Source: a virus (lineage: Duplodnaviria > Caudoviricetes). Taken from it: a stretch of 64,000 nucleotides of DNA. The stretch is from the IMG/VR virus record IMGVR_UViG_3300027255_000165; one strand, given 5' to 3'. Under the pieces are notes generated by a model that worked only from the letters and a program-made list of their open reading frames with translations, did not search any database and had not been told where the DNA came from. How positions within the stretch are numbered: position 1 is the first letter of the stretch; every line of letters begins with the position of its first letter. Shown in pieces: positions 1 through 30,284 of the stretch. Position numbers and translations under genes: made by a program.

Positions 1-321
1 TTCAAGAGTCCAATAATACGTTGCAAGTGGGGCAACAAATTCTCTGATAACTCGAGTGTAGATCTCTTTCATACCAACGGCATCCATCAACATATCATTA
101 GTTGGATAGAATTCGTGGCGGCCAAGAGTCCATTCGCCTTGAGTTTCAGCTAGGATGATTAGTTCCTCACAGAACCGTTGAGTAAACAATGGGAACTCAG
201 CTACACTAGGTCCCAATTCATCAATCATCAGCTGATATTCGCCTCTAGCAATTGCCGGATTGATGTATTTGTCAACCCATGCTTGCCAATTTGAAGTGTC
301 TAAGATTTCTGCGTAGTTCAT
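1..321 (-). CDS. PLOD/procollagen lysyl-hydroxylase-like 2OG-Fe(II) dioxygenase (N-terminal part; runs off window start; not in ORF track)
   Basis: Manual translation from ATG at 321 (ATGA overlap with the upstream GT stop): MNYAEILDTSNWQAWVDKYINPAIARGEYQLMIDELGPSVAEFPLFTQRFCEELIILAETQGEWTLGRHEFYPTNDMLMDAVGMKEIYTRVIREFVAPLATYYWTLE. This aligns by eye with the start of the PLOD LH domain (W..KYI...FP+.+...C+EL+...E..G.W..GRH....PT.D+.M..VG). The catalytic HxD..H would lie beyond the window. Confidence 0.75.
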   Translation of the reverse strand, partial: MNYAEILDTSNWQAWVDKYINPAIARGEYQLMIDELGPSVAEFPLFTQRFCEELIILAETQGEWTLGRHEFYPTNDMLMDAVGMKEIYTRVIREFVAPLATYYWTLE

Positions 322-1331
322 ATTGTGTTTATGATGTGTAACCATTGTTCGACTCGAAAGTTCCAGGTTTGCTGCTTTGCCCATTCGTGAGCTCTACGTC
401 TGAGTTTAGCTTTAACCTCTGGAGATCCGTGAAGTACTTTGATTATATTTAGAATGTCAGTGTCTGTTTCACCACTTTCGAGTAAAAAACCTCGATTGCC
501 CACCACTTCTGACAGAGCGGCAAGATTGGTTGTAATAGGTATGGCTCCGCAATATTGCGCTTCCAATGCAGTGATGCCGTAAGTTTCTTCATAATGCGTG
601 GGGTGTAACCAGTACTCTGATTTCATCTGCCAGTTGTGAAGAGTCATTTGATCAACAGTGCCCATATAGGTGACACCGTCTAATTGTGGCAATGGGCTAT
701 TATCTATATCGTACCCGGGCCCGAACACTCTTAGGGTTGCTCCAATGAGATTCTGATGTATTCTAGGCCACATCTTTAGAAGATCATACAATCCTCTTTC
801 ACGGGCAGAAGAATAGATGAATGAATTTGGAATCTTTTCAACTTTCCAAGATGGAAAATCATTTCGATCAATACCGTTACCAATTACGTGGATTGGTTTC
901 TGCAGGCTGTAATCTCTGATCAATTGCTGCTTGTGCCACTCAGTTAGGGCAATGAATCCATTGATTCGAGGATCTTCTAACCATGAGGAATCAATCACAG
1001 CCTCGCCTCTCCACCAAGGAAACCAATCTGTGTTATGGAACCAGAATAGTGACTTATCGAAATTGTTAAACTCTTTTAAATAGTGGAGGTATGATGCAGC
1101 GATCAACAGATCAAAATGTTGTTGATGGCACTGATCAATGTTAAGCCACGTAACTCCATTGTGGAATGTACTTTCTACTTGTCCACCAAAACAAACCGCG
1201 TGACCCCTCTTCGCAAGGCCCTCAGCCAATTTTAGAGCTGCAATCTCAGTACCGCCAACCCCATCGCAGCTTTCAATTCGCTGAGGAGTTATGTTAGTGT
1301 TTTGATAACCTACGTAAACGAGGATCTTCAT
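318..1331 (-). CDS. glycosyltransferase, GT-B fold (GT4/Glycos_transf_1-like)
   Basis: N-terminal GGTE motif, IGNGID, and C-terminal ETYGITALEAQYCG..PI....AAL.EVV (E-x7-E) signature. Confidence 0.85.
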   Translation of the reverse strand: MKILVYVGYQNTNITPQRIESCDGVGGTEIAALKLAEGLAKRGHAVCFGGQVESTFHNGVTWLNIDQCHQQHFDLLIAASYLHYLKEFNNFDKSLFWFHNTDWFPWWRGEAVIDSSWLEDPRINGFIALTEWHKQQLIRDYSLQKPIHVIGNGIDRNDFPSWKVEKIPNSFIYSSARERGLYDLLKMWPRIHQNLIGATLRVFGPGYDIDNSPLPQLDGVTYMGTVDQMTLHNWQMKSEYWLHPTHYEETYGITALEAQYCGAIPITTNLAALSEVVGNRGFLLESGETDTDILNIIKVLHGSPEVKAKLRRRAHEWAKQQTWNFRVEQWLHIINTI

Positions 1332-1398
1332 GTTAAATCGATTTACAATTATATCTAACTCTAATCGATTTGTTTACAGTTTCAATCGTCTATAAACT

Positions 1399-1422
1399 AA
1401 AAAGCCCGCTTTGCGGGCTTTT
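1399..1422. terminator. bidirectional intrinsic terminator
   Basis: AAAAAGCCCGC-TTT-GCGGGCTTTT inverted repeat with A/T tracts on both sides. Confidence 0.8.
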
Positions 1423-1424
1423 AA

Positions 1425-1547
1425 TTAGTTGTTTGCGATATAATCTCGAGCTTCTTCCTGTGAAGAGAATGAAGCAAGTAGATCAGCCTCATTAAGAACG
1501 AAAAACATTGGATTTCCGTTCAAATCAATTCCTTGTTCTATTCTCAT
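1425..1547 (-). CDS. small hypothetical protein, 40 aa (not in ORF track)
   Basis: MRIEQGIDLNGNPMFFVLNEADLLASFSSQEEARDYIANN*; fills the gap exactly between the 1550 stop and the terminator. Confidence 0.6.
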   Translation of the reverse strand: MRIEQGIDLNGNPMFFVLNEADLLASFSSQEEARDYIANN

Positions 1548-1549
1548 GA

Positions 1550-3037
1550 TTATCTAATTCTTTTTGAGTAGTATTCGTAGTTTCTAGCAACTTCAGCGCC
1601 AGTAAGAGCTTTCTTATAAACGTTAATGAATGAAATAGCACCAGAGAACTGTCTGCCATCTCCTTCTTGGCCAATATCAAGTCCTCCAATATAACCATTG
1701 TTACTTGAAACTCTCGTTGCAACCGTATTAACTAGAGTACCATCAATGTATTGTTTTAAATACCCTGTTGAGTAATCCCAAACAGTTGTTAAATGATACC
1801 ACTGATTTCTACTCATTACCTGTGAAGGTTCGTGGTAACCTTGGTTATCAGTTGAATACCAATACGAGCTTAGCCTTTGATTTGATTTGTTCCATGACAT
1901 GTAAATATGCGCTCTCATAATACATCCTCTATCGCCCGATGACAATTCATTTGCATCAGCATAAATCATAGATTCAAGCGTACAACTTCCTGTTCCAAGG
2001 TTTCCAATCTCTGGCGTAACAAACTTTTCAAAGCTTCTAAAATAATAAGCTTTTACTCCTTGAACGTCTTCAACATCGTGTGAACCACCTGAAGCATGGC
2101 GACCTTGACCTGAAAGATCATAGAGAGTTCCACTATTATTAAATGAATTTGGATTAGCAAAATCATAAGAAGCCCATAGTCCATCCACTGTAGGATACAA
2201 GTCTTCATTATGTAAGTGGTACGTTCCAGCATTTGCATTCAACCAAGAGATAGCATCACCCGGTGTTTCAAATGTTGTACCAGCTAACTGAGATGCAATG
2301 TGCTTAAGTTGACCTGCGTTTGAAGCTGCAGAATAGAATCTTGGAGTTACACCATCGTTCGCCCAAACTTGAAGGTCTCTACCAGCACCAGTTGGAAGAC
2401 CAACCATTGAAGTTCTTGCAACCGGCTCAGAACCGTAACCTGACCATTCGCCAAGTTGAGCCTTAGCTTCAACATTAGATGGTACAGCTGCATCTCCTTT
2501 ATGATAGACTGCCTTCATATCATCACCTGTTGCTTTGATCCAAAGCTCAGCTCTGTTAACAGGAACACCAGGACCTGGGAAATTGGTAGCTCCACTCCAT
2601 GAAGAAGCTGAAGCAACTGCAAAGTACCAGTTACCGTGTGGATTTGAGCCATCTAAAAATGTGGTTCCAGTCTGGCTAGATCTAGTAAGACCGTTCCAAT
2701 AGTTATTGTTCCATCCGGTTTCAATTTTAACCACATTATCGACCACCTCCATGATGTCTAGTGGGTTTTGAGCTTGAGACCAGATATTGTTTCTATCAGG
2801 GTATTGAGGATATACAAGTTTGAAAGTGTATTTACCGTCAAATCTAAAGTTCTTAATGTAAGCCATGATTGAATACTTATTCGCACTTGGATTACCAGGA
2901 TTAGACCATTTGGCTTCATCCCAGTCATTAGCCGTGCTAAAGAATTCACCGCCACCTGAATAGTGACTAAATACTTTCATCCACTGTCCGTCAAACTCTA
3001 CTGGATAACCATTATATGTTGATGTTATAATTGACAT
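1550..3037 (-). CDS. virion adhesin-like protein: N-terminal fibrinogen-related-like domain plus C-terminal LamG/ConA-like domain
   Basis: WMKVFSH...NKYSIM..GKYTFKLVYP..N.WSQ..NP..WNGL..S..TFLDG (FReD-like); C-terminal WYHLTTVWD....KQYIDG..FSGAISFINVYKKALT..EVARNY (LamG). Confidence 0.65.
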   Translation of the reverse strand: MSIITSTYNGYPVEFDGQWMKVFSHYSGGGEFFSTANDWDEAKWSNPGNPSANKYSIMAYIKNFRFDGKYTFKLVYPQYPDRNNIWSQAQNPLDIMEVVDNVVKIETGWNNNYWNGLTRSSQTGTTFLDGSNPHGNWYFAVASASSWSGATNFPGPGVPVNRAELWIKATGDDMKAVYHKGDAAVPSNVEAKAQLGEWSGYGSEPVARTSMVGLPTGAGRDLQVWANDGVTPRFYSAASNAGQLKHIASQLAGTTFETPGDAISWLNANAGTYHLHNEDLYPTVDGLWASYDFANPNSFNNSGTLYDLSGQGRHASGGSHDVEDVQGVKAYYFRSFEKFVTPEIGNLGTGSCTLESMIYADANELSSGDRGCIMRAHIYMSWNKSNQRLSSYWYSTDNQGYHEPSQVMSRNQWYHLTTVWDYSTGYLKQYIDGTLVNTVATRVSSNNGYIGGLDIGQEGDGRQFSGAISFINVYKKALTGAEVARNYEYYSKRIR

Positions 3038-8082: not shown

Positions 8083-11000
8083 TTATGCTTGTTTTAGCAA
8101 ATCAATCTCAGCTTTTAGCTCTTTGATTGCCTCAACTAGAACTGGAATTACACCATCATAATTCACTGACAAGAATGGTTCGTGAGTCACAGGATCGATA
8201 TTTGTTGATACCAATTCTGGGATTACTGCTTTAACTTCTTGTGCAATGAAACCGTATTGAGTGCCTTCTCTTCTTTCATCTTTCCATGTGAAGGTTGTAC
8301 CTCTTAGGGCTTCAATCTTAGCTAGACCAGATGATAGAGTTGCAATGTTCTCCTTTAGGTTTTGGTCAGATGCAGTTGATGAGTAAGCTACGATATCGCC
8401 TCCGACGTGCAGTTGACCTTTTAGAGCCATGTTACCATCAGTAGAGATAGAAGAAGCTACATAACCATCAGATGCAACGAAGGACCAACCTCTGTTGGAC
8501 TGTCTGTTCATTGTGAAAGTTAGAGCGTAGTCAGTAACCCAGCCGTAATCGGCAACGTCATTACCCATACCAATACCGTAAGAAGAATCAGTACCCCACA
8601 TTCTGTACTTAGTCCAGTTATTACCTGCGTCCGTGTAGTGATAAGATCCACCGTTTGGACCTGTAGCACCTGTAGCACCTGTAGCACCTTTAGCACCGCC
8701 AGCACCTTGAGCACCTTGAGCACCTTGAGCACCTTGAGCACCTGTAGCACCTTTAGCACCAGGAGCACCACCTGGACCGCCTGGACCCTGGTAACCTTGA
8801 GCACCTTGAGCACCAGTAGCACCTCCGCCACCAGTAGCACCTTGAGCACCTGTAGCACCATTTACACCTGAAGAACCAGATGTACCTGATGAACCTGAAG
8901 TACCTGCAGCACCTTGAGCACCTTGAGCACCTTGAGCACCTGTAGCACCTCCGCCACCTGTAGCACCTTTAGCACCATTTACACCTGAAGAACCAGATGT
9001 ACCTGATGAACCTGAAGTACCTGCAGCACCTTGAGCACCTTGAGCACCTTGAGCACCTTGAGCACCAGTAGCACCTGTAGCACCTCCGCCACCTGTAGCA
9101 CCTTTTTGACCAACAGGGCCTTGGTAACCTTGAGCACCTTGAGCACCTTGAGCACCTTGAGCACCTGTACCACCTTGAGCACCTGTACCGCCATTTACAC
9201 CTGAAGAACCAGATGTACCTGATGAACCTGAAGTACCTGCAGCACCTTGAGCACCAGTAGCACCTGTAGCACCTTTTTGACCAACAGCTCCTTGAGCACC
9301 TTGAGCACCATTTACACCTGAAGAACCAGATGTACCTGAAGTACCTGAAGTACCTGCAGCACCTTGAGCACCTTGAGCACCTTGAGCACCTGTATTACCC
9401 GTAGCACCTTTTTGACCAACAGCTCCTTGAGCACCTTGAGCACCATTTACACCTGAAGAACCAGATGTACCTGAAGTACCTGCAGCACCTTGAGCACCTT
9501 GAGCACCAGTAGCACCTGTAGCACCTTTTTGACCAACAGCTCCTTGAGCACCTGTAGCACCTTGAGCACCAGTAGCACCTGTAGCGCCATTTACACCTGA
9601 AGTACCTGATATACCGTCTACACCTGCTGCACCTTGAGCACCAGTAGCACCTGTATTACCAATTGGACCTTGGTAACCTTGAGCGCCTTGAGCGCCTTGA
9701 GCACCTGTAGCACCTGTAGCACCTTTTTGACCAACAGGACCTTGGTAACCTTGAGCACCTTGAGCACCTTGAGCACCTTGAGCACCTTGAGCACCTTGAG
9801 CACCTGTATTACCCGTATCACCTTTTTGACCAACAGCTCCTTGAGCACCAGTAGCACCTTGAGCACCATTTACACCTGAAGAACCAGATGTACCTGAAGT
9901 ACCTGCAGCACCTTGAGCACCTTGAGCACCTGTATTACCCGTATCACCTTTTTGACCAACAGCTCCTTGAGCACCTGTAGCACCTTGAGCACCATTTACA
10001 CCTGAAGAACCAGATGTACCTGAAGTACCTGCAGCACCTTGAGCGCCTTGAGCGCCTGTATTACCTGTTGAACCTTTTTGACCAACAGCTCCTTGAGCAC
10101 CTTGAGCACCATTTACACCTGAAGAACCAGATGTACCTGAAGAACCAGATGTACCTGCAGCACCTTGAGCACCAGTAGCACCTGTAGCACCTTTTTGACC
10201 AACAGCTCCTTGAGCACCTTGAGCACCATTTACACCTGAAGAACCAGATGTACCTGAAGTACCTGCAGCACCTTGAGCACCTTGAGCGCCTGTATTACCC
10301 GTAGCACCTTTTTGACCAACAGCTCCTTGAGCACCTTGAGCACCATTTACACCTGAAGAACCAGATGTACCTGAAGAACCAGATGTACCTGAAGTGCCAT
10401 TAGCACCTTGAGCACCTCTAGCACCTTGAGCACCTTGAGCACCTGTAGCACCAATTAGGCCAGAATTAGGACCAATCCATTGACCTGAAGAATTTAGGAT
10501 TGGTGTACCGTTGACCGTAACGTTGTTATCCGGTCTTAGGTGAATGTCCTGATCAGCGAAGATCTCCAAATCTTCTGGAGAATCTGTATTTGCTGCAATG
10601 AATGTTTCTGCCGCGTCACCTGCAAAAGCAATTTTTGCTGTACCCGGAAGAATGATATTACCATCAACTGTTAGCTGACCATTAACTTGAGTTTTACCAA
10701 GTTGTAGACCTGTGGTTGCATTAGAACCAGAGATCGATTTAGCCGAGTTAATAGTGATGTCTGAGTTAAATGTAACACCGCCAGTCGAATTAAAATTCAT
10801 ACCACCCTCTTGAGCAGAGAATTGTAGAATACCGTTGTTAAGAGTTTTAATAACAAGGTTTTGACCTGGATCGGTTGAAATGTTAATAGTGTCGGAGTTA
10901 TCCTCGATGACTTTCTTACCATTAACATATAGTGAGTTTGGACCAACAAAAAGTTCATCTACATTGATCTGTGATGTTTTGGTGGCTTCGTCGAATGTAA

Positions 11001-11334
11001 TTAGATTGTATTCATTTCCAAGAGCATCCGTAAATGCTACGTTTGGAGGAAGAAGGGTTTTATCTGCATCACGACCAAGCTGACCAGTAATATACTCGTG
11101 GAGGTGAGTCATCTCATTCTCAAGTGCCTTAACACCACGTGTAAGTTCATCAACGATTGGACCCATTGCAAAAAGCTTGGTGTAAGATTCATCAGCACCG
11201 TAAGCATTTGCAGTTTTACCTGCAGTTGTTCTTGTAGTGTCAATGAACTTAGCTTTTAGTAATTCTGCATCGGAATCCTTTAGAACGAATGTAGATCTAA
11301 ACGTTGCTAAGTCTTTAAGACTAATTCTAGACAT
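8083..11334 (-). CDS. collagen-like tail fibre with C-terminal peptidase S74 (intramolecular chaperone) domain
   Basis: About 600 aa of Gly-X-Y (GAQ/GAT/GQK/GTS, ~8650-10452); C-terminal SDQNLKENI...[22 protein letters not shown]+IP+LVEAIKEL. Confidence 0.9.
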
Positions 11335-11397: not shown

Positions 11398-14300
11398 TTA
11401 AAGTTTATTTATTCTATTTTCTAGATCCTTCACTCTAGAGTGTAGGTCCTTAACGATTTCGAATAAGTAAACCGTCATTTTGTCGTAATGCATCGAGATG
11501 AAGCCACCTTGACCGTCAGAAACTGCTAGTCTCTCGTCAAATGCAGCAACTTCTTCTGCAATGAAACCTAGGTCTTTCTTACCAGATTCTTTCCATGTGA
11601 ACTCTCTAGCATTCAGGCTTAGGAATTCCTCAGCGTCAAATGTTAGAGTTTCAACATCAGTCTTGAATCGTAGTGATGAACCTTGGAAACCAACTCCATT
11701 AGATACAAAATCCCACATCATTGGCATTGGAGCTTCCATATCTCCGTCGTTCACCATTGCGCTGTTAGAGAATTCGACCCAGGTCCCGTTCGGGTATGGA
11801 CCACCAGGTTGGCTGTAGAAACCAACATCACCGGCTTTCCATAGGAGCGTGTTACCGTCAAACGTTAGGTTAGTTTCACCGTTGATGGTTGTAGAACCAG
11901 TGGCTGTAAGAACTCTATTGTTGACGTTGTTTGTGATAGGAGCAGCTGCACCTTGAGCACCTTGAGCACCTGTAGCACCTTGAGCACCTGTAGCACCGCC
12001 AGCGCCTTGAGCACCTTGAGCACCTGTAGCACCAGTAGAACCTTTAGCACCACCAGCACCTTGAGCACCTTGTACACCTGAAGGAATAGTAAACTGGAAG
12101 TTAGCATTGGTAGCGTTACCAATGTTTAGAACTTCAACTGGAGTACCAGGTCCACCTGTTAGGGCTGGAGCAACATCGATTGTTGCTGCAGTACCTGTGT
12201 TACCTTGAGCGCCTTGAGCGCCTTGAGCACCTGTAGCGCCTTTTTGGCCTTGAGCACCTTGAGCACCTGTAGCACCTTGAGCACCTTGAGCACCGTTAAC
12301 ACCTGAAGAACCAGAAGTACCTGATGAACCAGAAGTACCATTGACACCTGCGGCACCTTGAGCACCTTGAGCACCTGTAGCGCCTTGAGCACCTTGAGCA
12401 CCTTGAGCACCAGTAGAGCCTTTAGCACCGTTAACACCTGAAGAACCAGATGTACCTGATGAACCAGAAGTACCTGATGAACCAGAAGTACCGGCAGCAC
12501 CTTGAGCACCTTGAGCACCTTGAGCACCTTGAGCACCTTGAGCACCAGTAGCGCCTTGAGCACCTGTAGCACCGCCAGCGCCTTGAGCACCTTGAGCACC
12601 GTTAACACCTGAAGAACCAGACGTGCCTGATGAACCAGATGAACCAGATGTACCTGAAGTACCAGCAGCGCCTTGAGCACCTTGAGCACCCGTAGCACCA
12701 GTCTGACCTTTTTGACCTTTTTGACCAACTGGAATTGTAAATTCAAAGTTGGCGTTTAAAGTATCACCTAGGTTTACAACTTGAGCAGGAGTACCTTCAG
12801 CCGATGTAACTGTTGGAGCAACGTTAACTTGGGCTGCAGTACCTACGTTACCTTGAGCACCTTGGGCACCTGTAGCACCTTGAGCACCTTGAGCACCAGT
12901 AGCACCTTTAGCACCGTTAACACCTGAAGAACCAGATGTACCTGATGAACCTGATGAACCTGATGCACCTTGAGCACCTTGAGCACCTTGAGCACCAGTA
13001 GAGCCTTTAGCACCGTTAACACCTGAAGAACCAGATGTACCTGATGAACCAGAAGTACCAGAAGTACCGTTTGTACCAGAAGTACCGTTTGTGCCTGATG
13101 AACCTGAAGTACCAGAAGTACCGTTTGTACCAGAAGTACCGTTTGTACCAGAAGTACCGTTTGTACCAGAAGTACCGCTTGTACCATTAGTACCAGAAGT
13201 ACCATTTGTACCTGATGAACCAGATGTACCAGAAGTACCGTTTGTACCAGAAGTACCGTTTGTACCATTTGTACCCGATGAGCCTGAAGTACCAGAAGTA
13301 CCTGCAGCTCCTTGAGCGCCTGTAGCACCTTTTTGACCTTTTTGACCAATTGGGATTGTGAATTCTAGGTTAGCGTTCAAAGGCGTTCCAATGTTTAGAA
13401 CTTCAACTGGAGTACCTTCTGCACCAGTAAGAGCTGGAGCAACATCGATTGTTGCTGCAGTACCGACTGCACCTTGAGCACCTTGAGCACCTTGAGCACC
13501 TTGAGCACCTTGAGCACCTTGAGCACCAGTAGCACCTTTAGCACCGTTAACACCTGAAGAACCAGATGTACCTGATGAACCTGATGAACCTGATGAACCT
13601 GATGAACCTGAAGTACCGTTTGTACCAGAAGTACCGTTTGTACCAGATGAACCTGAAGTACCTGAAGAACCCGATGAACCTGATGAACCAGAAGTACCAT
13701 TTGTACCAGAAGTACCATTTGTACCTGATGAACCAGATGAACCAGATGATCCTGAAGTACCATTTGTACCTGAAGTACCGTTAGTACCGTTAGTACCTGA
13801 AGAACCAGATGAACCAGATGAACCAGATGAGCCTGAAGTACCGTTAGTACCTGAAGAACCAGATGAACCAGAAGTACCGTTTAGATCAGCTACTAGGTTC
13901 CATGCGGCAGCTCCGTCCCATTGATAAACAAGACCGTCTGCTGTGAAACCTAGTTGACCAGGGAATGAACCTGTACCTAATTCTACAACTGAAGATGCTG
14001 ACTTAGCACCATCATGTCCAGAAGTACCCGATGTACCAGAAGTACCCGATGTACCAGATGAGCCTGAAGTACCTGAAGTACCGTTTGTACCTGATGAACC
14101 TGATGTTCCAGCAGTACCTGAAGTACCTGAAGTACCAGAAGAACCTGATGTACCGTTTGTACCTGATGTTCCAGAAGTACCTGAAGTACCTGATGTACCA
14201 GATGAACCAGATGAACCTGAAGTTCCAGATGTACCATTAGTACCTGATGTACCGTTAGTACCTGATGTACCAGAAGAACCTGATGTTCCAGCAGTACCTG

Positions 14301-17300
14301 AAGTACCTGATGTACCAGAAGAACCTGATGTTCCAGCAGTACCTGAAGTACCTGATGTACCAGAAGAACCTGATGTACCAGATGAACCAGATGAACCTGA
14401 AGTACCCGAGATACCGCCTGCACCTGCAACCGTGTATTTAATAATTAGCATGTTTCCGATCACTGGCACATAACCAGGATCTGGAGAGTTAATTCTAGCA
14501 ACAGTGAAGACTGCTTCGTTACCGACAATCAATTTAGCATTAATTGTGAACTCGTGTCTATCAGCACCGTTAAATTCGAACAATAGTTGTGAAGCAGCAC
14601 CCATCACATTATGAAGGGTTGTTCTGTCATTCATCCATCTATCGAAATTATTGATTCTAATTTCTGTTGCGTTGTATAGATCGCCTGTATTTGTGGTGAA
14701 GTTAGTTGCAGTTGCATCTCCTTGACCACCAAAGAAATAAGGCGCGTCAATTGTACCGTTAACACCTGATGTACCAGAAGTACCAGCAGTACCAGAAGTA
14801 CCGTTTGTACCGTTTGTACCAGAAGTGCCAGAAGTACCAGAAGTACCAGAAGTACCAGAAGTACCGTTTGTACCTGATGTACCGTTTGTACCTGAAGAAC
14901 CTGAAGTACCAGCAGTACCTGAAGAACCAGATGTACCAGAAGTACCGTTTGTACCTGATGTACCGTTTGTACCTGAAGAACCTGATGTACCAGAAGTACC
15001 AGAAGTACCGTTTGTACCTGAAGTACCGTTAGTACCTGAAGAACCTGAAGTACCGTTAGTACCTGAAGTACCGTCTGTACCATCTGTACCTGAAGAACCT
15101 GAAGTACCGTTTGTACCTGAAGAACCTGAAGTACCGTTTGTACCATTTGTACCTGAAGAACCTGAAGTACCGTTTGTACCATTTGTACCTGAAGAACCTG
15201 AAGTACCGTTTGTACCTGAAGAACCAGATGAACCCGAAGAACCCGAAGAACCCGAAGAACCTGAAGTACCGTTTGTACCTGAAGAACCAGATGAACCCGA
15301 AGAACCTGAAGAACCTGAAGTACCGTTTGTACCTGAAGAACCAGATGAACCCGAAGAACCTGAAGAACCTGAAGTACCGTTTGTACCTGAAGAACCCGAA
15401 GTACCGTTTGTACCTGAAGAACCCGAAGTACCGTTTGTACCATTTGTACCTGAAGAACCCGAAGTACCGTTTGTACCGTTTGTACCTGAAGAACCCGAAG
15501 TACCAGAAGTACCAGAAGTACCAGAAGTACCAGATGAACCAGAAGTACCAGAAGTACCAGATGAACCTGAAGAACCGCCAGTACCATTTGTACCAGATGA
15601 ACCTGAAGTACCTGAAGTGCCTGAAGTACCAGATGAACCTGAAGTACCAGATGAACCTGAAGTACCTGAAGTACCCGAAGTACCCGAAGTACCTGAAGTA
15701 CCAGATGAGCCTGAAGTACCTGAAGTGCCTGAAGTACCAGATGAACCTGAAGTACCAGATGAACCTGAAGTACCTGAAGTACCCGAAGTACCTGAAGTAC
15801 CTGAAGTACCAGATGAGCCTGAAGTTCCGTCTGTACCAGATGAGCCTGAAGTTCCGTCTGTACCAGATGAGCCTGAAGTTCCGTCTGTACCAGATGAACC
15901 TGAAGTTCCGTCTGTACCAGATGAACCTGAAGTACCTGAAGTACCTGAAGTACCTGAAGTACCTGATGTACCATCAGTGCCGTCTAAGCCTGAAGTACCA
16001 GATAGACCCGATGAACCAGAAGTACCATCTGTACCTGATGAACCAGAAGAACCTCCTTCACCAGTTATACCTGATGAACCAGAAGTACCAGAAGTACCAG
16101 AAGTACCAGATGTTCCTGAAGTACCGTTTGTACCTGATGAACCTGAAGTACCAGAAGTACCAGAAGTACCAGATGAACCTGAAGTACCAGAAGTACCAGA
16201 TGTTCCAGATGTACCGTCTGTGCCAGAAGTTCCAGAAGTACCAGAAGAACCTGGAAGACCAGCTTCACCTGAAATGTAACCTTTAAATGTCCATGCGCCG
16301 CCACCTGGAGTAGATCCTTCGTTAGCCGTACATGTCTCTTCGATCACTGTTTGTACCGCACCAGGGGCGTGGCTGTTAGTAACAATACCACCAGAATAGG
16401 TTGCGATTGTGTTAAGTGATGAAGTTGAATAAGTAGTCATCAACAGCACCTGTGCGTTAGCGTTGTAAGCGTCAACTTTCAATACATCAGCGTAATCAAT
16501 ATCTGCTTGAGTGTATGCGTCGTCGCTACCACCGTCAGGTGCGTCTGTAATAAGAACAATGTACTTAGCAACACCTTCTCTAAAGCCACCTACCATACCA
16601 GAGTTGATTACTCTATCAAGAGCAATACCTGCTGGTTCTGGAGTACCTTGACCATTACCTAGAGGGAAGTCAACTGTATTCATCTTGTTCAACTGTGAAG
16701 TGAACGAAGAGATGTTGTTTGACGAGAATGTCTCTAGAGCAGTGATGTGTGAAGATCTGCTAGCTGTGTAATTGTTTAGAATGTATCTCTGTGTAGATGG
16801 AAGAGCGTTGTAAGTTGCAGTTGCACCGTAAGTTGGTGTACCGTCAACTCCGTACTCGTCAAATGTTACAAGAGATAGTCTGTAGTTGTTATTAGATTCT
16901 GTCTCGATCGTTGAAGCGATAGCTGCAATTGAAGACTTAACGTTGTTGATTGCTCCACCCATTGAACCGGTGTAGTCAACCAAGAACACAACGTCCATAC
17001 CTTGATCACATGGTGCAGGGTTACCAGGACCATAGCCTGACCATTCCCAAATACCACCGTCACAGTCAAAATAAAGTTGACCAACGAATGAACCTGTTAC
17101 GTCACCATTTGGATCGCCGTAACATCCTGATTTAGCGCCATCATAACCTGATGAACCTGAAGTACCAGATGTACCTGATGTACCTGATGTACCATCTGTA
17201 CCTGATGAACCTGAAGTACCTGAAGTACCCGAAGTACCTGAAGTACCTGATGTACCTGATGTACCATCTGTACCTGATGAACCAGAGGTACCAGAAGTAC

Positions 17301-18228
17301 CAGAAGTACCAGAAGTACCAGAAGTACCAGAAGTACCAGATGAACCTGAAGAACCGCCAGTACCATTTGTACCAGATGAACCTGAAGTACCTGAAGTGCC
17401 TGAAGTACCAGATGAACCTGAAGTACCAGATGAACCTGAAGTACCTGAAGTACCCGAAGTACCCGAAGTACCTGAAGTACCAGATGAGCCTGAAGTACCT
17501 GAAGTGCCTGAAGTACCAGATGAACCTGAAGTACCAGATGAACCTGAAGTACCTGAAGTACCCGAAGTACCTGAAGTACCTGAAGTACCAGATGAGCCTG
17601 AAGTTCCGTCTGTACCAGATGAGCCTGAAGTTCCGTCTGTACCAGATGAGCCTGAAGTTCCGTCTGTACCAGATGAACCTGAAGTTCCGTCTGTACCAGA
17701 TGAACCCGAAGTACCTGAAGTACCTGAAGTACCTGAAGTACCTGATGTACCATCTGTACCTGATGAACCTGAAGTACCAGATGAACCGGAACTACCGTCC
17801 GTACCATCTAGACCCGAAGTTCCAGATAGACCTGAAGTACCAGATGAACCTGAAGAACCTGAAGTGCCTGAAGTACCCGAAGTACCTGATGAACCGGAAC
17901 TACCGTCCGTACCATCGGTACCGTCTGTACCTGATGAACCAGATGAGCCTGAAGAACCTGAAGTACCCGAAGTACCTGAAGAACCAGATGTACCTGAAGA
18001 TCCAGATGTACCTGAAGTTCCTGAAGTACCAGCGGTACCAGAAGTACCAGAAGTACCAGACGAACCAGACGTACCTGAAGAACCAGAAGTACCAGACGAG
18101 CCAGACGTACCTGATGAACCCGAGGTACCCGAAGTTCCGGCTGTGCCGGAAGTACCTGAAGTACCGTTAGTACCTGAAGAACCAGAAGAACCTGAGGTAC
18201 CTGTCGTTTTAATTAAAGGAATTGCCAT
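11398..18228 (-). CDS. giant (2276 aa) Ser/Thr-rich Gly-X-Y fibre protein with vWA domain, collagen segments and S74 chaperone
   Basis: Long [12 protein letters not shown] runs; vWA with MIDAS ([18 protein letters not shown], ~16330-16998); three ATIDVAP..GTPVEV.NIG..NA.F.FTIP modules; C-terminal [25 protein letters not shown] (S74). Confidence 0.9.
15540..15975. repeat. ~430-bp near-identical direct repeat, copy A (copy B at ~17319-17754)
   Basis: Sequences compared by eye; the unique anchor CCGCCA is at 15575 and 17354 (offset 1779 = 593 codons), and rare synonymous variants are shared. Confidence 0.8.
17319..17754. repeat. ~430-bp near-identical direct repeat, copy B
   Basis: See copy A; the two copies flank the vWA module. 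Confidence 0.8.
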
Positions 18229-21471: not shown

Positions 21472-21473
21472 GG

Positions 21474-25528: not shown

Positions 25529-27490
25529 TTACAGGTCGTAAGAAGAAGCCTGGTAAATAACGTCAATATCATCTGATGGATCTAGTCCATAACCTGCATA
25601 GGTAGGGTTCCAGATCAATACGTCGCCGGATGCAATGTCTTTAATCAGCTTGGCGACCATTGCGTTTCCATCAGTATTGTAACCTGAAAGGGTAGGATCT
25701 GTAAAGTAACAATCATCTTCGTTGTCTCCATCTCCGATGTTAACTTCAACACCGTTAATTTTAACAATTACATCGCTATCCTGGAATGGAGTGTAGTCGA
25801 TATTGATTCCTGTCACATAGTGATCGTGTGTTGTGGTTGAAGCCACAACCTGGTTTTTATCAACTGATACATTAACTCCCGTTTCTGGTTCGTCATTAAC
25901 GCCTTCTAGCATTAGAAGAACTGCAGAAGAACCCGCTGATGAAGATGTGATACCGTTTTGGTTGATATATGTTCCATTACCGGTGATCATTAGATCTCCA
26001 CCATCTTGTCTTGTTAAAATCAAGAAGTCAGCTCCGTTTGCAGGGGCTGAAGCCGCGATACCAAAACCTGATAGGAATGTATCTCCTAGAACGTCAACGT
26101 CAGTTGTTGTGATAGAGATTGAAGCCGTTGATGTAATAGCTTGAATCTTCAATTGTCCAAAGGTAGATGAGTAAGCTCCGTCTCCTGGTATGATTGCGAT
26201 TGCTTCAAGATCTAGGCCATCAGCTTGAAAAGCAGCGTTAAAAAGATCAGCTGCGATCTGAGCATTAACCAATAGGTATTCCGGTGCATCTGGATATGCG
26301 ATTGGAGAAGTTACTGTTGTTTGGTCAAATAGAACTGTTGTTGAATTTGTACCATCGCTGATTGTTACATCAATCTGGGTGTAACTTGCGCCTGTGTTAT
26401 CTGATAGCGCTAGGATTGATACACCATTAGTTGCAACAGATGCGTTAGAAAGCAAAGATGAAAACTCTGATTCTTTAGATGCTGTGATATGGTGATCATC
26501 AGTTGATACGTTAATTAGGTCAACAAAATCTTGAACTGTTGAAACTTCATCTGAAGAACCATCAAACACTGGAATCTCATTAAAGATAATCATGTCTGAA
26601 GAACCCGGTAAGTAGTTTGAAATAGTAGCTCTAACTTCAGTTTGAACTGGATCTTTAACTTGTAGGAAAAGTGCTTTAGCTCCTCTTGAAGCAGTTGTTG
26701 TGATTCCACCAGGAACTGTAGGGTCCATGTAGTAGATTTCACCAGCATTACCATTAAGAAGTTCAGGGTTTGAGTGGTTATCAATTAACGTGTTAAATGG
26801 CTTAATGTAAACTACAGTGTCATTCATTGTCTTTTCAAGAACCAAACCAACTGGAACTTCTGCAGCACCCGGAGTTCCAAGCTTTACAAACTCGCCTTCA
26901 GCTGAAACTGTAATAATGTCGCCTGAATTATAACCTGTTTGAGAAGTTGAAAATTCAAATCTGTATCTTTCTGTTTCTTCTTCAGCTGCAAAGCGACCTT
27001 GGATCTTATCCATTGACGCTGGAGTTGGAAAGAAAGATTGAACTGCCCCAGTAGTTAGAAGAGGCACATTGTTATCTGAAACTTCAAAGAAAGCTAGCTT
27101 AGAATTTGTTGTAAGATAATTTGAAGCGTAAAGTTTATACGCAATCATATCTACGTCTTTTGCGATAAAAGAAATAGACGTTTCGGATTTAGTTTCGATT
27201 GATTCAATCTTTAGAACAATCTGACCATTTTCACTTGTAACCCAATCTCCAGACTTAATGTCCAATCCATTGTACTCTTTAACGTTACCTGAACGAGAAT
27301 TAGCAGTACCGATGGATTGCGAAGTTACTTGATCAACTGTGATTTCAAAGGTGTAATATGCACCGGTTGCTTTAATGCCAGTTGAATCCTCATAAGGATA
27401 CTGATCTAAACCGTTAATAGATGTGATTCTACCGGATAGAAATAGGGGTGGATTGGTTGGATTGTAGATTGCCATAGTCTTAGAATACAA
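25529..27490 (-). CDS. putative structural protein (653 aa)
   Basis: Thr/Ser/Asp-rich beta-type composition; C-terminal module shared with 18259..19017. Confidence 0.6.
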   Translation of the reverse strand: MYSKTMAIYNPTNPPLFLSGRITSINGLDQYPYEDSTGIKATGAYYTFEITVDQVTSQSIGTANSRSGNVKEYNGLDIKSGDWVTSENGQIVLKIESIETKSETSISFIAKDVDMIAYKLYASNYLTTNSKLAFFEVSDNNVPLLTTGAVQSFFPTPASMDKIQGRFAAEEETERYRFEFSTSQTGYNSGDIITVSAEGEFVKLGTPGAAEVPVGLVLEKTMNDTVVYIKPFNTLIDNHSNPELLNGNAGEIYYMDPTVPGGITTTASRGAKALFLQVKDPVQTEVRATISNYLPGSSDMIIFNEIPVFDGSSDEVSTVQDFVDLINVSTDDHHITASKESEFSSLLSNASVATNGVSILALSDNTGASYTQIDVTISDGTNSTTVLFDQTTVTSPIAYPDAPEYLLVNAQIAADLFNAAFQADGLDLEAIAIIPGDGAYSSTFGQLKIQAITSTASISITTTDVDVLGDTFLSGFGIAASAPANGADFLILTRQDGGDLMITGNGTYINQNGITSSSAGSSAVLLMLEGVNDEPETGVNVSVDKNQVVASTTTHDHYVTGINIDYTPFQDSDVIVKINGVEVNIGDGDNEDDCYFTDPTLSGYNTDGNAMVAKLIKDIASGDVLIWNPTYAGYGLDPSDDIDVIYQASSYDL

Positions 27491-30284
27491 ATATTACGTA
27501 TGCGTGAGCGTTTCTTGCAGAAGAACCCAAACCTGATTTATTACCGTATTTAATAAAGTCTTTTCTTACGTCAAGTGTCATTGATGTTGTAAATGCACCA
27601 TTTAAGAAGTTTGGAACAAGTTGATTTGTGCCAGACGTAGAGAAGTTTGCAGCTGCAGAATCAATTTTAGCTAGTGCAGCGTCAACTCTGTAGGCGTGAA
27701 CTTCATACTTGTAAGTTGCAGGATCCCATGCAAGAACCTGAATTGCAAGTGGTGGATTTGATTCATTGAATGAAACTGTAGCTGTATAAATTGCCGTTGA
27801 AGTATTAACTGAAACTGAGTCAACTGATGCGTTTGCAGTCAAGAATCCAGTTGCAGAAACAAACTTGTTATCTGTAGTGTTATTAACTAGGTGGTTTGAT
27901 GAATCATATTCAAGTCTTAGTAGATACTTGTTAGTTCCTGAACCAGAACCTCCTGAGATAGTAGACCACTGTACGTTATATGGGTTAGAGTCAATTTTAA
28001 CAAGCGCTTGACCTGATGTACCACCTGAAGGAATTCCAAGACCATTAGTACCTGAAGAACCTGACGTACCATCTGTACCTGAAGAACCTGAAGTACCATT
28101 AGTACCCGAAGAACCAGAAGTGCCGTCCGTGCCAGATGAACCTGAAGTACCTGAAGAACCCGAAGTACCATTGTCACCTGAAGTACCCGATGAACCTGAA
28201 GTACCATCAGTTCCTGAAGAACCTGAAGTACCGTCTGTGCCTGATGATCCTGAAGTACCATCAGTTCCTGAAGAACCCGAAGTACCATTGTCACCTGAAG
28301 TACCTGAAGAACCCGAAGTACCATTGTCACCTGAAGTACCCGATGAACCTGAAGTACCATCAGTTCCTGAAGAACCTGAAGTACCGTCCGTGCCTGATGA
28401 TCCTGAAGTACCATCAGTTCCTGAAGAACCCGAAGTACCATTGTCACCTGAAGTACCTGAAGAACCCGAAGTACCATTGTCACCTGAAGTACCTGAAGAA
28501 CCAGAAGTGCCATCAGTACCTGATGAACCTGAAGTGCCGTCTGTACCTGAAGAACCCGATGTACCGTCTGTGCCAGATGAACCTGATGTGCCGTCCGTGC
28601 CTGATGAACCTGAAGTACCATTATCTCCTGAAGTACCTGAAGAACCCGAAGTACCGTCTGTACCTGAAGAACCCGAAGTACCGTCTGTACCTGAAGAACC
28701 CGAAGTACCGTCTGTACCTGAAGAACCCGAAGTACCGTCTGTACCTGAAGAACCCGAAGTACCGTCTGTACCTGAAGAACCCGAAGTACCGTCTGTACCT
28801 GAAGAACCCGAAGTACCGTCTGTACCTGAAGAACCCGAAGTACCATCAGTACCTGATGAACCTGAAGATCCACTTGCTAATGAAGAAGCACTAATTACAT
28901 AAGGGTCTGCAACTGTACCAGAACCCGAAACATCAATGTTAGTTCCAGCCTGTGTAATACCTCCAACGCCATCTGTACCAGATGAACCAGAAGTACCATC
29001 AGAACCTGAAGTACCATCAGTGCCTGAAGAACCTGAAGTACCATCAGTACCTGAAGAACCAGATGAGCCTGAAGTACCATCAGTACCTGAAGAACCTGAA
29101 GTACCATCAGAACCAGATGAGCCTGAAGTACCATCAGAACCTGAAGAACCAGATGAGCCTGAAGTACCATCAGTACCTGAAGAGCCAGATGAGCCTGAAG
29201 TACCATCAGTACCTGAAGAACCAGATGAACCGTCAGAACCTATTACACCATCTACACCTGCAGGACCCTGTGGACCCGCTACGCCATCAGTACCTGATGA
29301 ACCTGAAGTACCGTCTGTACCTGAAGAACCTGAAGTGCCGTCTGATCCTGCAGTTCCTGAACCAGAACCTGCTCCACCAAACATATCAATGTCATAACTA
29401 ATGTACTGTCCTACTTCCCATACGTATGGTGAAGCAACTGGAGAGTATGAGCTATCTTCGTATGTAACTAGAACTTCAGTGTAATCATTATCGTTATCGT
29501 CTCCTCCACCGGCTTCAGCGTTAATTCTATTATAACCTGTAATTTCGTAGATAGCGTATTGGTTTGGAGAACCTGCGTTTGTAACAACGATGTTAGCGTT
29601 GACGTTAGAACCGCCCGGGTCTCTCTTTATCAGATAATTTTCAAGCAGTACGTTTCTAACGTTGTTCTGATCTAAGTTGTAAAACTTGATTGAAGTTACC
29701 AGTGAAGGATCAGAGGCATTGAACGTGACTGATTTCAGTGATGGGTTTGAGCCATCAACTGCAGATACTTGGTATCTAACGTAAGGGCTTGAAGCGTTAC
29801 TTGAACCTGAAAGTGAAGTTGATCCTGAACCCGATCCTGAACCAGAACCTGAACCTGAACCAGTACCTGTAATACTTGATCCGCTAACTGTACCAATCAT
29901 CAACTGTGGAATAATGTAAGTCTTCGCTGATGGATAGTAGTTAGAGTATGTGATTGTTACTTGAGCATAAAGGTTACCATTGGCCAGATTTGCGCTCTGG
30001 TTTGGTGTGATCGAGAAAGAGATGTAACCCTGCGTTGCTGTTGCTGGGTTACCCATTGTTAGAAGATCAGTAATACCCGAAATAACTGGGTTTGAGTACT
30101 GATACATCTTTTGTCCTAATGAATTGTACAGAGATACCGTAATTGAATCGGCATCAGCGGCATTCAACTGATTGTTGATGTAGTCTTTGTACAAGATTAG
30201 CTCGACGGTCGATGGTTGGCCAGCAACCACTGAAAGGTTACTGCCGATATAAACCATTATGTCATCCTTTGAAACGTAAGGCAT
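27480..30284 (-). CDS. Ser/Thr-rich Gly-X-Y repeat virion protein (934 aa)
   Basis: GTDGTSGSS / GDNGTSGSS repeats (~28040-29370) between globular N- and C-terminal domains. Confidence 0.8.
28639..28827. repeat. perfect 27-bp tandem repeat x7 (encodes GTDGTSGSS)
   Basis: Unit GAAGAACCCGAAGTACCGTCTGTACCT starts at 28639, 28666, 28693, 28720, 28747, 28774, 28801, plus a partial copy. Confidence 0.85.

What the first reader, a model, noticed from the sequence alone, without database searches (positions are those of the whole stretch)
1..321. Unannotated PLOD/lysyl-hydroxylase-like gene translationally coupled to a GT4
The ORF is missing from the track because it is truncated by the window edge. 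Its 107 visible residues track the PLOD C-terminal LH domain motif by motif (W..KYI; FP+F+..FCEEL+..AE..G.W..GRH; PT.D+.M..VG+...Y..++.EFV.P). The ATGA overlap with the GT4 gene gives a GT-then-LH order like the GT+LH domains of PLOD3 and mimivirus L230, split into two genes, although the PLOD GT is GT-A and this one is GT-B. This would be an unusual enzyme for a bacteriophage.
Basis: partly seen in the sequence, partly recalled or inferred. Interest (0 to 1): 0.85.

Follow-up and report, generated by a model that had tools for sequence, protein, structure and literature searches.

The report
Phage collagen lysyl hydroxylase with GT4 partner
The cut-off gene at the window's left edge is the first half of a stand-alone relative of the animal and mimivirus collagen lysine hydroxylase, coupled to a sugar-transferase gene in a large marine phage whose collagen-like fibres carry lysines only where such enzymes act, so the fibres are probably hydroxylated and glycosylated as animal collagen is.

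Summary
Window 1-321 (minus strand) holds the first 107 codons of a gene that runs off the window, and its ATG overlaps the TGA of a GT4 gene (318-1331) as ATGA.

Two marine metagenome contigs with 92-96% DNA identity carry the same 107 residues and the full 207-residue gene. That gene has the predicted FIIRY...Q..L.HHD.S..T motif and the distal His and Arg.

Sequence and an AlphaFold model place it with PLOD/LH3 and mimivirus L230. OGFOD2 and prolyl hydroxylases match much less well.

About 26 related phage loci carry PKHD-type oxygenase, GT4, a GT25-LH fusion and a HAD-like gene, just downstream of collagen-like genes. The window and three contigs have lost the GT25 domain, leaving GT4 directly coupled to LH. 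Both genes stay under strong purifying selection, and GT4-LH fusions exist elsewhere.

All 25 lysines in the Gly-X-Y runs of two window fibres sit at the Y position.

The best reading is a reduced fibre-modifying pair in which LH makes hydroxylysine and GT4 glycosylates it. No activity was tested.

I found no paper describing this in phages. This scan has noted the same kind on other DNA, and cultured phages S-CAM9 and CRP-6 carry unannotated three-domain versions.

The parts
1..321 (-). First 107 of 207 codons of a stand-alone PLOD-type lysyl hydroxylase (LH) gene, cut by the window edge. The visible part holds the N-terminal helical region and W104 of the dimer pocket. The catalytic Y123, H134, D136, H183 and R193 lie beyond the edge.
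   Evidence: ORF. PDB phmmer of the fragment gives LH3 at 1.1e-7 and L230 at 6e-6. The full gene was read in L010:7281-7901 and L009:10001-10624, with 107/107 identical residues.
318..321 (-). ATGA overlap: the LH start ATG (321-319) overlaps the GT4 stop TGA (320-318).
   Evidence: Sequence. The same junction occurs in L009 and L010.
318..1331 (-). GT4-family (GT-B) glycosyltransferase of 337 aa, a conserved partner of LH.
   Evidence: Pfam. It is homologous to the N-terminal GT4 domain of GT4-GT25-LH fusions P0006, P0008, P0016 and P0017 (29-36% identity, E 1e-22 to 1e-45). It is also homologous to the GT4-LH fusion P0018 (35% identity, E 2e-59). dN/dS is 0.04-0.18.
8083..11334 (-). Collagen-like fibre protein A, 1083 aa, with 202 Gly-X-Y triplets and a Peptidase_S74 C-terminus. 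Likely LH substrate: 13 Lys in the repeats, all at Y (GQKG x10, GAKG x3).
   Evidence: Pfam Collagen at 2e-79 and Peptidase_S74 at 4e-18. Lysine positions.
11398..18228 (-). Collagen-like fibre protein B, 2276 aa, with 514 triplets in 7 runs and a Peptidase_S74 C-terminus. Likely LH substrate: 12 Lys in the repeats, all at Y.
   Evidence: Translation, Pfam, lysine positions.
27480..30284 (-). Collagen-like protein C, 934 aa, with 138 triplets of G-T/S-S/D type and no Lys in the repeats. Probably not an LH substrate.

Best explanation
Window 1-321(-) is the N-terminal half of a 207-residue, stand-alone Fe(II)/2-oxoglutarate lysyl hydroxylase of the PLOD/L230 type, encoded by a large uncultured marine tailed phage.

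In the infected cell it most likely converts the Y-position lysines (G-X-K-G) of the phage's collagen-like fibre proteins (8083-11334 and 11398-18228) into hydroxylysine before the chains form triple helices. The translationally coupled GT4 glycosyltransferase then most likely puts a sugar on that hydroxyl group.

The pair is a reduced form of a cassette conserved in related phages: PKHD-type oxygenase, GT4, GT25-LH fusion, HAD-like phosphatase. This lineage has lost the COLGALT-like GT25 domain. GT4 therefore either glycosylates hydroxylysine directly, as the L230 GT domain does, or relies on another transferase encoded elsewhere.

Shown: family membership, catalytic residues in near-identical contigs, gene coupling, cassette conservation, fusion counterparts, purifying selection, and lysine placement. 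Inferred: the substrate, the order of reactions, the sugar, and all activity.
For: Identity of the gene:
- The fragment matches only LH3 and L230 in the PDB.
- The full gene from L010 (identical over the 107 visible residues) matches LH3 at 1.1e-28 and L230 at 2.3e-22, against 8e-4 for prolyl 4-hydroxylase.
- The AF2 model has pLDDT 96.2.
- Foldseek PDB ranks 1-15 are all LH3 or L230 (TM 0.79-0.86, 27-35% identity); the next family reaches TM 0.64 at most.
- In AFDB Swiss-Prot, PLOD1-3 score TM 0.82-0.87, OGFOD2 0.74-0.78 and P4H about 0.6.

Residues:
- H134, D136, H183 and R193 are invariant and Y123 nearly invariant in 86 relatives.
- They map to L230 Y814, H825, D827, H877 and R887. The dimer knob L873 maps to I179, and the pocket Y798/Y801/Y831 maps to W104/W111/Y140.

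Cassette:
- 26 related loci with complete context carry GT4 | GT25-LH, and collagen-like genes lie upstream in most of them.

Rosetta-stone fusions:
- Among the 150 listed hits of the representative-library search there are 23 GT4-GT25-LH and 3 GT4-LH proteins.
- P0018 is a GT4-LH fusion whose GT4 is 35% identical to the window's.
- P0018 lies next to a collagen with 65 Lys at Y and 0 at X, and its contig has no GT25.

Substrate:
- In the window, 25 of 25 repeat lysines are at Y.
- In related loci, 448 are at Y and 6 at X.

Selection after the GT25 loss:
- dN/dS is 0.04-0.09 for LH and 0.04-0.18 for GT4.

Complex prediction for GT4 with LH:
- Weak support only: score 0.41 against a best control of 0.00. 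That mark was reached by 51 of 78 solved complexes and 2 of 108 mismatched pairs, but passes at 0.60 or below are more often wrong than right. Runs agree in at least 85% of contacts, and the partner pLDDT is at least 81.
Against: - The catalytic half is not in the window. It is read from contigs with 92-96% DNA identity, not from this genome.
- No activity, hydroxylysine or glycan has been observed for any phage member.
- The GT25 domain, the homologue of the enzyme that glycosylates hydroxylysine in animals, is absent from the 64-kb window and from 10 kb downstream in L009 and L010. The role of GT4 here is therefore open.
- GT4 resembles only generic GT-B enzymes such as GlgA and BshA, which says nothing about its acceptor.
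- The fibres are dominated by Thr/Ser triplets, which are also plausible O-glycosylation sites.
- Lysine density is low: 13 in 202 triplets and 12 in 514.
- A Lys-at-Y bias could partly reflect triple-helix sequence preferences and not enzyme targeting. No control set of LH-free phage collagens was analysed.
Confidence: 0.7

Rival explanations
1. LH is a genuine lysyl hydroxylase acting on the fibres, but GT4 does not act on hydroxylysine. Instead it O-glycosylates Ser/Thr of the G-T-S repeats, or it builds another glycan. On this view the adjacency only reflects a shared fibre-decoration module.
For: The fibres are mostly Thr/Ser triplets. GT4 has only generic GT-B similarity. The window holds several other GTs and sulfotransferases. 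From established knowledge, Bacillus BclA collagen-like repeats are O-glycosylated on Thr.
Against: The GT4 ORF overlaps the start of the LH or GT25-LH ORF in every related locus with complete context, and it is fused into one polypeptide with LH in 26 of the 150 listed hits. Fusion to a hydroxylase is hard to explain if the two act on different residues. The GT4-LH fusion P0018 lies next to a collagen with 65 Lys at Y.
Confidence: 0.2
2. The LH-like oxygenase hydroxylates something other than collagen-like lysines, for example a host or phage non-collagen protein or a small molecule. The neighbourhood of collagen genes would then be incidental to the virion gene block.
For: The substrate is untested. 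Other members of the wider superfamily act on non-collagen targets: Bacillus P4H modifies EF-Tu (title of PDB 5v7y), and OGFOD2 has no known substrate. Lysine density in the window's fibres is low.
Against: The closest solved relatives are all collagen lysyl hydroxylases, at 27-35% identity over the whole domain. Collagen-like genes lie immediately upstream of the cassette in most related loci, with 448 Lys at Y against 6 at X. Relatives are fused to GT25 and PLOD-type GT domains, the two collagen hydroxylysine glycosyltransferase families.
Confidence: 0.08
3. After losing GT25, the LH and GT4 genes in this lineage are decaying leftovers with no function.
For: GT25, and in the window and L010 also the PKHD-type oxygenase, have been deleted.
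Against: Within the GT25-less group dN/dS is 0.04-0.09 for LH and 0.04-0.18 for GT4, at dS up to about 1.4. All catalytic residues are kept in L009, L010 and L011. A new start codon sits precisely at the domain boundary.
Confidence: 0.02

Closest known systems
Acanthamoeba polyphaga mimivirus L230 (bifunctional collagen lysyl hydroxylase / hydroxylysine glucosyltransferase; LH domain PDB 6ax6, 6ax7, 9nev; PMC5802723)
   Same: It is a viral enzyme with the same LH fold (TM 0.79-0.83, 27-29% identity). It has the same Fe triad, the same Tyr and Arg for 2OG, and the same knob-and-aromatic-pocket dimer residues. It is encoded by a virus that also encodes collagen-like proteins. The hydroxylase is paired with a glycosyltransferase.
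   Different: L230 is one 895-aa chain with a GT-A type GT domain, from a virus of eukaryotes. Here LH is a separate 207-aa protein in a bacteriophage, coupled to a GT-B (GT4) enzyme. No activity has been shown.
Human LH3/PLOD3 with COLGALT1 (PDB 6fxk, 8zgc): the Lys to Hyl to Gal-Hyl to Glc-Gal-Hyl pathway
   Same: It is the best sequence and structure match to the LH domain: E 1.1e-28, TM 0.83-0.86, 34-35% identity over residues 515-713 of the chain. The target motif X-Lys-Gly matches the fibres' lysine placement. Phage relatives carry GT25 (the COLGALT family) and PLOD-type GT domains fused to LH.
   Different: The window's version has neither the PLOD GT and accessory domains nor a GT25. 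There is no signal peptide or ER context, since the reaction would run in a bacterial cytoplasm. A GT4 stands in their place.
The GT4 | GT25-LH cassette of uncultured marine phages (e.g. P0005, loci L002-L034), and the GT25-GT_PLOD-LH proteins of cultured phages S-CAM9 (gp218) and CRP-6 (gp58), annotated as hypothetical
   Same: P0005 (loci L002-L005), the closest representative-library hit, is 76% identical in LH and 51% in GT4; other cassette loci range from 74 to 81% in LH and 49 to 66% in GT4. These loci share the same flanking HAD-like gene and the same position downstream of collagen-like fibre genes. The S-CAM9 and CRP-6 proteins lie next to tail-fibre genes; the CRP-6 one next to a Pfam Collagen protein.
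   Different: The window, L009, L010 and L011 lack the GT25 domain, and LH has its own start codon at the former domain boundary. The window and L010 also lack the PKHD-type oxygenase gene.
OGFOD2 family (Pfam PF25238, OGFOD2-like domain)
   Same: It is the only Pfam model that touches the fragment (E 1.2e-4, below the gathering score). It is the second-best structural family (TM 0.74-0.78).
   Different: Identity is only 19-24%, rmsd is larger, and the Pfam hit stays below threshold. PLODs match clearly better.

Membership tests
Collagen lysyl hydroxylase (PLOD / L230 LH domain) | LH-type double-stranded beta-helix fold with its specific N-terminal helical region, and closer to PLODs than to any other 2OG oxygenase family | tested here: met
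   The AF2 model has pLDDT 96.2. Foldseek PDB ranks 1-15 are all LH3 or L230 with TM 0.79-0.86, and the next family reaches 0.64 at most. In AFDB, PLOD1-3 score 0.82-0.87 against OGFOD2 at 0.74-0.78. The model was built from L010, which is identical to the window over residues 1-107.
Collagen lysyl hydroxylase (PLOD / L230 LH domain) | HxD...H iron triad (L230 H825, D827, H877) | tested here: met
   H134, D136 and H183 are present in L009, L010 and L011 and invariant in 86 relatives. They are not visible in the window itself, where the gene is cut at residue 107.
Collagen lysyl hydroxylase (PLOD / L230 LH domain) | 2-oxoglutarate C5-carboxylate ligands Tyr and Arg (L230 Y814, R887) | tested here: met
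   Y123 is at least 90% conserved and R193 is invariant. The mapping comes from the alignment and residue roles from PMC5802723.
Collagen lysyl hydroxylase (PLOD / L230 LH domain) | Dimer knob (L230 L873) and aromatic pocket (Y798, Y801, Y831) | tested here: met
   By alignment these are I179 and W104, W111, Y140, and W104 lies inside the window. Only residue conservation was tested, not dimer formation.
Collagen lysyl hydroxylase (PLOD / L230 LH domain) | Hydroxylation of Lys in X-Lys-Gly of collagen chains | not testable with these tools
   Only indirect support. In the window, 25 of 25 repeat lysines are at Y. In related loci, 448 are at Y against 6 at X.
PLOD multi-domain architecture (GT, accessory and LH domains in one chain) | PLOD-type GT-A domain N-terminal to LH in the same polypeptide | tested here: not met
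   LH is a stand-alone 207-aa ORF. No GT_PLOD or GT25 match was found anywhere in the window.
Marine phage GT4 | GT25-LH cassette | GT4 ORF overlapping the start of an ORF that ends in LH, followed by a HAD-like gene | tested here: met
   The GT4 to LH overlap is seen in the window, and the HAD-like gene follows in L009, L010 and L011.
Marine phage GT4 | GT25-LH cassette | GT25 (COLGALT-like) domain fused to the N-terminus of LH | tested here: not met
   It is absent in the window, L009, L010 and L011, and present in all 26 other loci with complete context.
OGFOD2 family | Pfam PF25238 hit above the gathering score, and best structural similarity to OGFOD2 | tested here: not met
   The fragment scores 22.5 bits and the full-length L010 protein 20.3 bits, against a cut-off of 31. 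OGFOD2 ranks below all PLODs.

The most novel reading that the evidence does not exclude
In this lineage, and in the GT4-LH fusion proteins such as P0018, a retaining GT-B (GT4) enzyme glycosylates hydroxylysine directly. That would be a class of hydroxylysine glycosyltransferase unrelated to the GT-A enzymes (GT25, PLOD GT) known from animals and mimivirus. It would give phage fibres a hydroxylysine-linked glycan of a non-animal type, which may tune host recognition or resistance to proteases.
Probability: 0.3. Interest if true: 0.75.

Novelty: new variant of a known kind. Interest (0 to 1): 0.62.

Why it matters
Hydroxylysine and its glycosides are regarded as a hallmark of animal collagen, with mimivirus as the one viral exception. 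In the full-text library I could search I found no paper describing a PLOD-type lysyl hydroxylase in bacteriophages.

If these phage enzymes are active, collagen lysine chemistry is widespread in marine phages. It would take place in bacterial cytoplasm and decorate the fibres that meet the host surface. That bears on three questions:
- where the animal collagen-modifying enzymes came from;
- how phage fibres are stabilised or disguised;
- how modified recombinant collagens might be made in bacteria with compact 207-aa enzymes.

This particular locus adds a natural experiment. Here the COLGALT-like domain has been deleted but LH and GT4 are kept under selection.

Tried and rejected
- Extending the window: no whole genome is held. 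The first 50 bases were not found in IMG/VR, and no relative of the fragment turned up there. The first 6 kb had no megablast match in GenBank phages, and tblastn of the 107-aa fragment found nothing there. The metagenome scan then succeeded.
- PHROGs has no family for the fragment, and NCBIfam has none for the full protein.
- A tree of LH domains did not resolve whether L011 and the window group lost GT25 once or twice. The basal forks are unsupported, L001 is a truncated contig, and L037 is a long branch.
- Looking for a replacement GT25 or PLOD-type GT in the window found only GT2-family genes and DUF2827.
- A nucleobase or other 2OG hydroxylase family was rejected on the fold and sequence ranks.
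- Pseudogene decay was rejected on dN/dS.

Full report
**The observation**

The minus strand of window 1-321 is open from the ATG at 321-319 to the window edge, giving 107 codons. Plus-strand bases 318-321 read TCAT, which is ATGA on the minus strand. The start codon therefore overlaps the TGA stop of the upstream 337-codon gene at 318-1331.

Pfam assigns that upstream gene to the GT4/GT-B group: Glyco_trans_1_4 at 4e-12, Glycos_transf_1 at 3e-9 and Glyco_transf_4 at 1e-7.

In a phmmer search of all PDB sequences the 107 residues match only two proteins: human LH3 (E 1.1e-7, chain residues 515-612) and the mimivirus L230 lysyl hydroxylase (E 6e-6). The next hit has E 0.25.

**The rest of the gene**

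No whole genome is held for this window. GenBank phages and IMG/VR gave nothing for the fragment.

A scan of metagenome contigs found 30 loci. Two marine contigs encode exactly the same 107 residues and have 92-96% DNA identity to the window over several kilobases:
- L009 (OCVQ010000631.1);
- L010 (Ga0181563_10001515).

In both contigs the gene is 207 codons long. The missing half reads FIIRYRADKQGHLSLHHDHSSYT, followed later by HPGMISHRHGGRPVYSGTRYITVSF.

In an alignment of 86 relatives, H134, D136, H183 and R193 are invariant and Y123 is at least 90% conserved.

**Which family it belongs to**

Sequence evidence for the full-length protein:
- LH3: E 1.1e-28;
- L230: E 2.3e-22;
- bacterial prolyl 4-hydroxylases: only 8e-4.

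Structure evidence from an AlphaFold2 model with mean pLDDT 96.2 and pTM 0.92:
- In the PDB, ranks 1-15 are all LH3 or L230, with TM 0.79-0.86, rmsd 1.7-2.7 Å and 27-35% identity. The next family (PolD, viral and bacterial prolyl hydroxylases, 3dkq) reaches TM 0.64 at most.
- In Swiss-Prot models, PLOD1-3 of animals score TM 0.82-0.87. OGFOD2 proteins score 0.74-0.78 at 19-24% identity, and prolyl hydroxylases score about 0.6.

The only Pfam model touching the fragment is PF25238 (OGFOD2-like), and it stays below its gathering score.

Residue roles are taken from the L230 structure paper (PMC5802723) and mapped through the alignment:

| Role in L230 | L230 residue(s) | Phage LH residue(s) |
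|---|---|---|
| Iron triad | H825, D827, H877 | H134, D136, H183 |
| 2OG ligands | Y814, R887 | Y123, R193 |
| Dimer knob | L873 | I179 |
| Aromatic pocket | Y798, Y801, Y831 | W104, W111, Y140 |

W104 lies inside the window.

**Genome context**

The window is part of the virion-gene block of a large tailed phage. It holds a T4-type major head protein, a portal, a head protease and a sheath. The head protein is 52% identical to that of a 462-kb uncultured phage and 38% to those of Lak phages.

The window encodes three very long collagen-like proteins:
- Protein A (8083-11334) and protein B (11398-18228) end in a Peptidase_S74 chaperone domain, which is typical of fibres and spikes.
- Protein C (27480-30284) is the third.

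Lysine placement in the Gly-X-Y runs:
- Protein A has 13 lysines and protein B has 12. All 25 are at the Y position, mostly as GQKG or GAKG. This is the X-Lys-Gly site on which collagen lysyl hydroxylases act (established knowledge of the family).
- Protein C has no lysine in 138 triplets.

**The conserved cassette and what is special here**

tblastn mapping of five proteins onto all fetched loci, followed by a reading-frame check, shows one arrangement in 26 related marine loci. The order is a PKHD-type 2OG oxygenase, then GT4, then one ORF that fuses a GT25 domain to LH, then a small HAD-like phosphatase. The GT4 ORF overlaps the start of the GT25-LH ORF.

GT25 is the family of the animal collagen galactosyltransferases COLGALT1 and COLGALT2 (established knowledge, CAZy).

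Collagen-like ORFs lie on the same strand immediately upstream in most of these loci. Their repeats hold 448 lysines at Y and 6 at X. Near-identical loci inflate these counts somewhat.

Only the window, L009, L010 and L011 lack GT25. There, LH begins with its own ATG exactly at the former domain boundary. That ATG is the only start shared by all four. The window and L010 also lack the PKHD-type oxygenase gene, which L009 carries as a 690-bp insertion relative to the window.

A tree of LH domains could not resolve whether GT25 was lost once or twice.

Within the GT25-less group, dN/dS is 0.04-0.09 for LH and 0.04-0.18 for GT4, with dS up to about 1.4. Both genes have therefore stayed under strong purifying selection since the loss.

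**The link between GT4 and LH**

A phmmer search of 1.84 billion representative proteins with the fragment found 165 relatives at E up to 1e-3, of which 70 reach 1e-10. I classified the 150 listed hits with local phmmer seeds and checked some of them with Pfam:

| Architecture | Count |
|---|---|
| LH alone (many are fragments) | 81 |
| GT25-LH | 25 |
| GT4-GT25-LH | 23 |
| GT25-GT_PLOD-LH | 8 |
| GT_PLOD-LH | 5 |
| GT4-LH | 3 |
| Other arrangements or no seed domain detected | 5 |

The window's GT4 is homologous over its whole length to two groups of fusion proteins:
- the GT4 domains of the GT4-GT25-LH proteins (29-36% identity, E 1e-22 to 1e-45);
- the GT4-LH fusion P0018 (35% identity, E 2e-59).

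P0018 sits on a Tara contig directly downstream of a collagen-like gene with 65 lysines at Y and none at X. That contig has no GT25. The window's gene pair therefore has single-chain counterparts, which is good comparative evidence that the two proteins act together.

A complex prediction for GT4 with LH gave weak support only:
- The score was 0.41 against a best control of 0.00.
- That mark was reached by 51 of 78 solved complexes and 2 of 108 mismatched pairs.
- Passes at 0.60 or below are more often wrong than right unless the guess was already likely.
- The runs agreed in at least 85% of contacts, and the partner pLDDT was at least 81.

**The mechanism I propose**

Late in infection the fibre chains are made in the host cytoplasm. 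LH probably works as a dimer, like L230. Using Fe(II), 2-oxoglutarate and O2, it would hydroxylate the Y-position lysines before the triple helix forms. GT4 would then transfer a sugar to that hydroxyl group.

In the full cassette the likely division of labour rests on CAZy mechanism classes and the animal pathway, and is inference:
- GT25 is an inverting enzyme and would add the first, beta-linked sugar.
- GT4 is a retaining enzyme and would add the second, alpha-linked sugar. This is the step done by the PLOD-type GT in animals.

This fits the alternative architectures GT4-GT25-LH and GT25-GT_PLOD-LH.

In the window's lineage GT25 is gone. GT4 may therefore act directly on hydroxylysine, as the GT4-LH fusions suggest and as the L230 GT does. 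Alternatively, another transferase supplies the first sugar. The window has three GT2-family genes and a DUF2827 gene.

Rival readings:
- GT4 instead glycosylates the abundant Ser/Thr triplets.
- LH has a non-collagen substrate.
- The pair is decaying, which argues strongly against.

**Novelty**

The kind is known from animals and from mimivirus L230. I found no paper describing a PLOD-type lysyl hydroxylase in bacteriophages in the searchable library.

The nearest published idea is the 2010 prediction that bacterial beta-hydroxylases and sulfotransferases modify collagen-like and tail-collar proteins (PMC2938197). A 2022 review states that prokaryotic collagens are mostly unmodified and treats phage collagen segments as about 18 residues long (PMC8968730).

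The enzyme is not rare. Thirty loci were found in one metagenome scan. Two cultured phages encode GT25-GT_PLOD-LH proteins annotated as hypothetical, next to tail-fibre genes; the adjacent CRP-6 gene matches Pfam Collagen:
- Synechococcus phage S-CAM9 (gp218);
- Roseobacter phage CRP-6 (gp58).

This scan has already noted the same kind on other DNA: 23 notes in at least 16 genomes, and a system-level note on this window. Those are unchecked AI notes. I rediscovered the 439-aa GT25-LH protein and the three-domain form independently here.

What this locus adds is the GT25-less, stand-alone LH coupled to GT4. I rate it a new variant of a known kind. Interest is moderate to high. The main limits are that the catalytic half lies outside the window and that nothing has been assayed.

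Noticed in passing
window 1332-1549, compared with L009:8296-8986: Relatives carry a 196-aa PKHD-type / 2OG-FeII_Oxy_3 oxygenase gene between the Laminin_G_3 gene and GT4. The window and L010 lack it, and about 220 bp of intergenic DNA stand in its place. The window's collagen-like proteins are also very poor in proline (0-6 at X, 1 at Y), whereas related loci with this gene have many Pro at X (387 at X against 84 at Y).
   Followed up: partly
L009:10625-11056, L010:7905-8333, and all related loci: A 142-143-aa HAD-superfamily phosphatase-like gene (LNS2 / PNKP-phosphatase-like) follows LH directly in every locus. It may belong to the cassette. In L009 it is followed by an R2K-type ATP-grasp gene.
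   Followed up: partly
window 11398-18228 (-), about residues 400-640 of the product: The 2276-aa collagen-like fibre has non-collagen inserts between its seven Gly-X-Y runs. One of them looks like a von Willebrand factor A domain by eye (DxTGS motif). This was not tested with a profile.
   Followed up: no
window 5608-6312 (-), 1550-3037 (-), 3300-5504 (-): A Sulfotransfer_2 gene and two Laminin_G_3 (concanavalin-like lectin) proteins lie between the GT4-LH pair and the collagen fibres. Sulfation of hydroxylated collagen-like proteins was predicted for bacteria in PMC2938197.
   Followed up: no
window 20341-23420 (-) and 35671-37122 (-): There are three GT2-family glycosyltransferase genes and a strong DUF2827 match (E 6e-89). 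These are candidates for further fibre glycosylation, or for replacing the lost GT25.
   Followed up: no
L039 (Synechococcus phage S-CAM9, gp218) and L040 (Roseobacter phage CRP-6, gp58): Cultured phages encode proteins of 613 and 589 aa with GT25, a PLOD-type GT and a C-terminal LH-like domain. They are annotated as hypothetical and lie next to tail-fibre genes; the CRP-6 neighbour matches Pfam Collagen. They are usable as experimental models.
   Followed up: partly
L007:6791-11059 and L008:3138-7406: Two LH-bearing genes stand in tandem: GT4-GT25-LH of 791 aa and GT25-LH of 434 aa, with LH domains only about 29% alike. They are followed by a PKHD-type oxygenase and a 982-aa GT4/methyltransferase/GT9 protein, beside a tail sheath gene.
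   Followed up: no
window 322-345 (-): There is no Shine-Dalgarno-like sequence ahead of the LH start (upstream ...CATCATAAACACAAT). This would fit a host group that does not rely on SD pairing. An earlier scan note suggests a Bacteroidia host.
   Followed up: no
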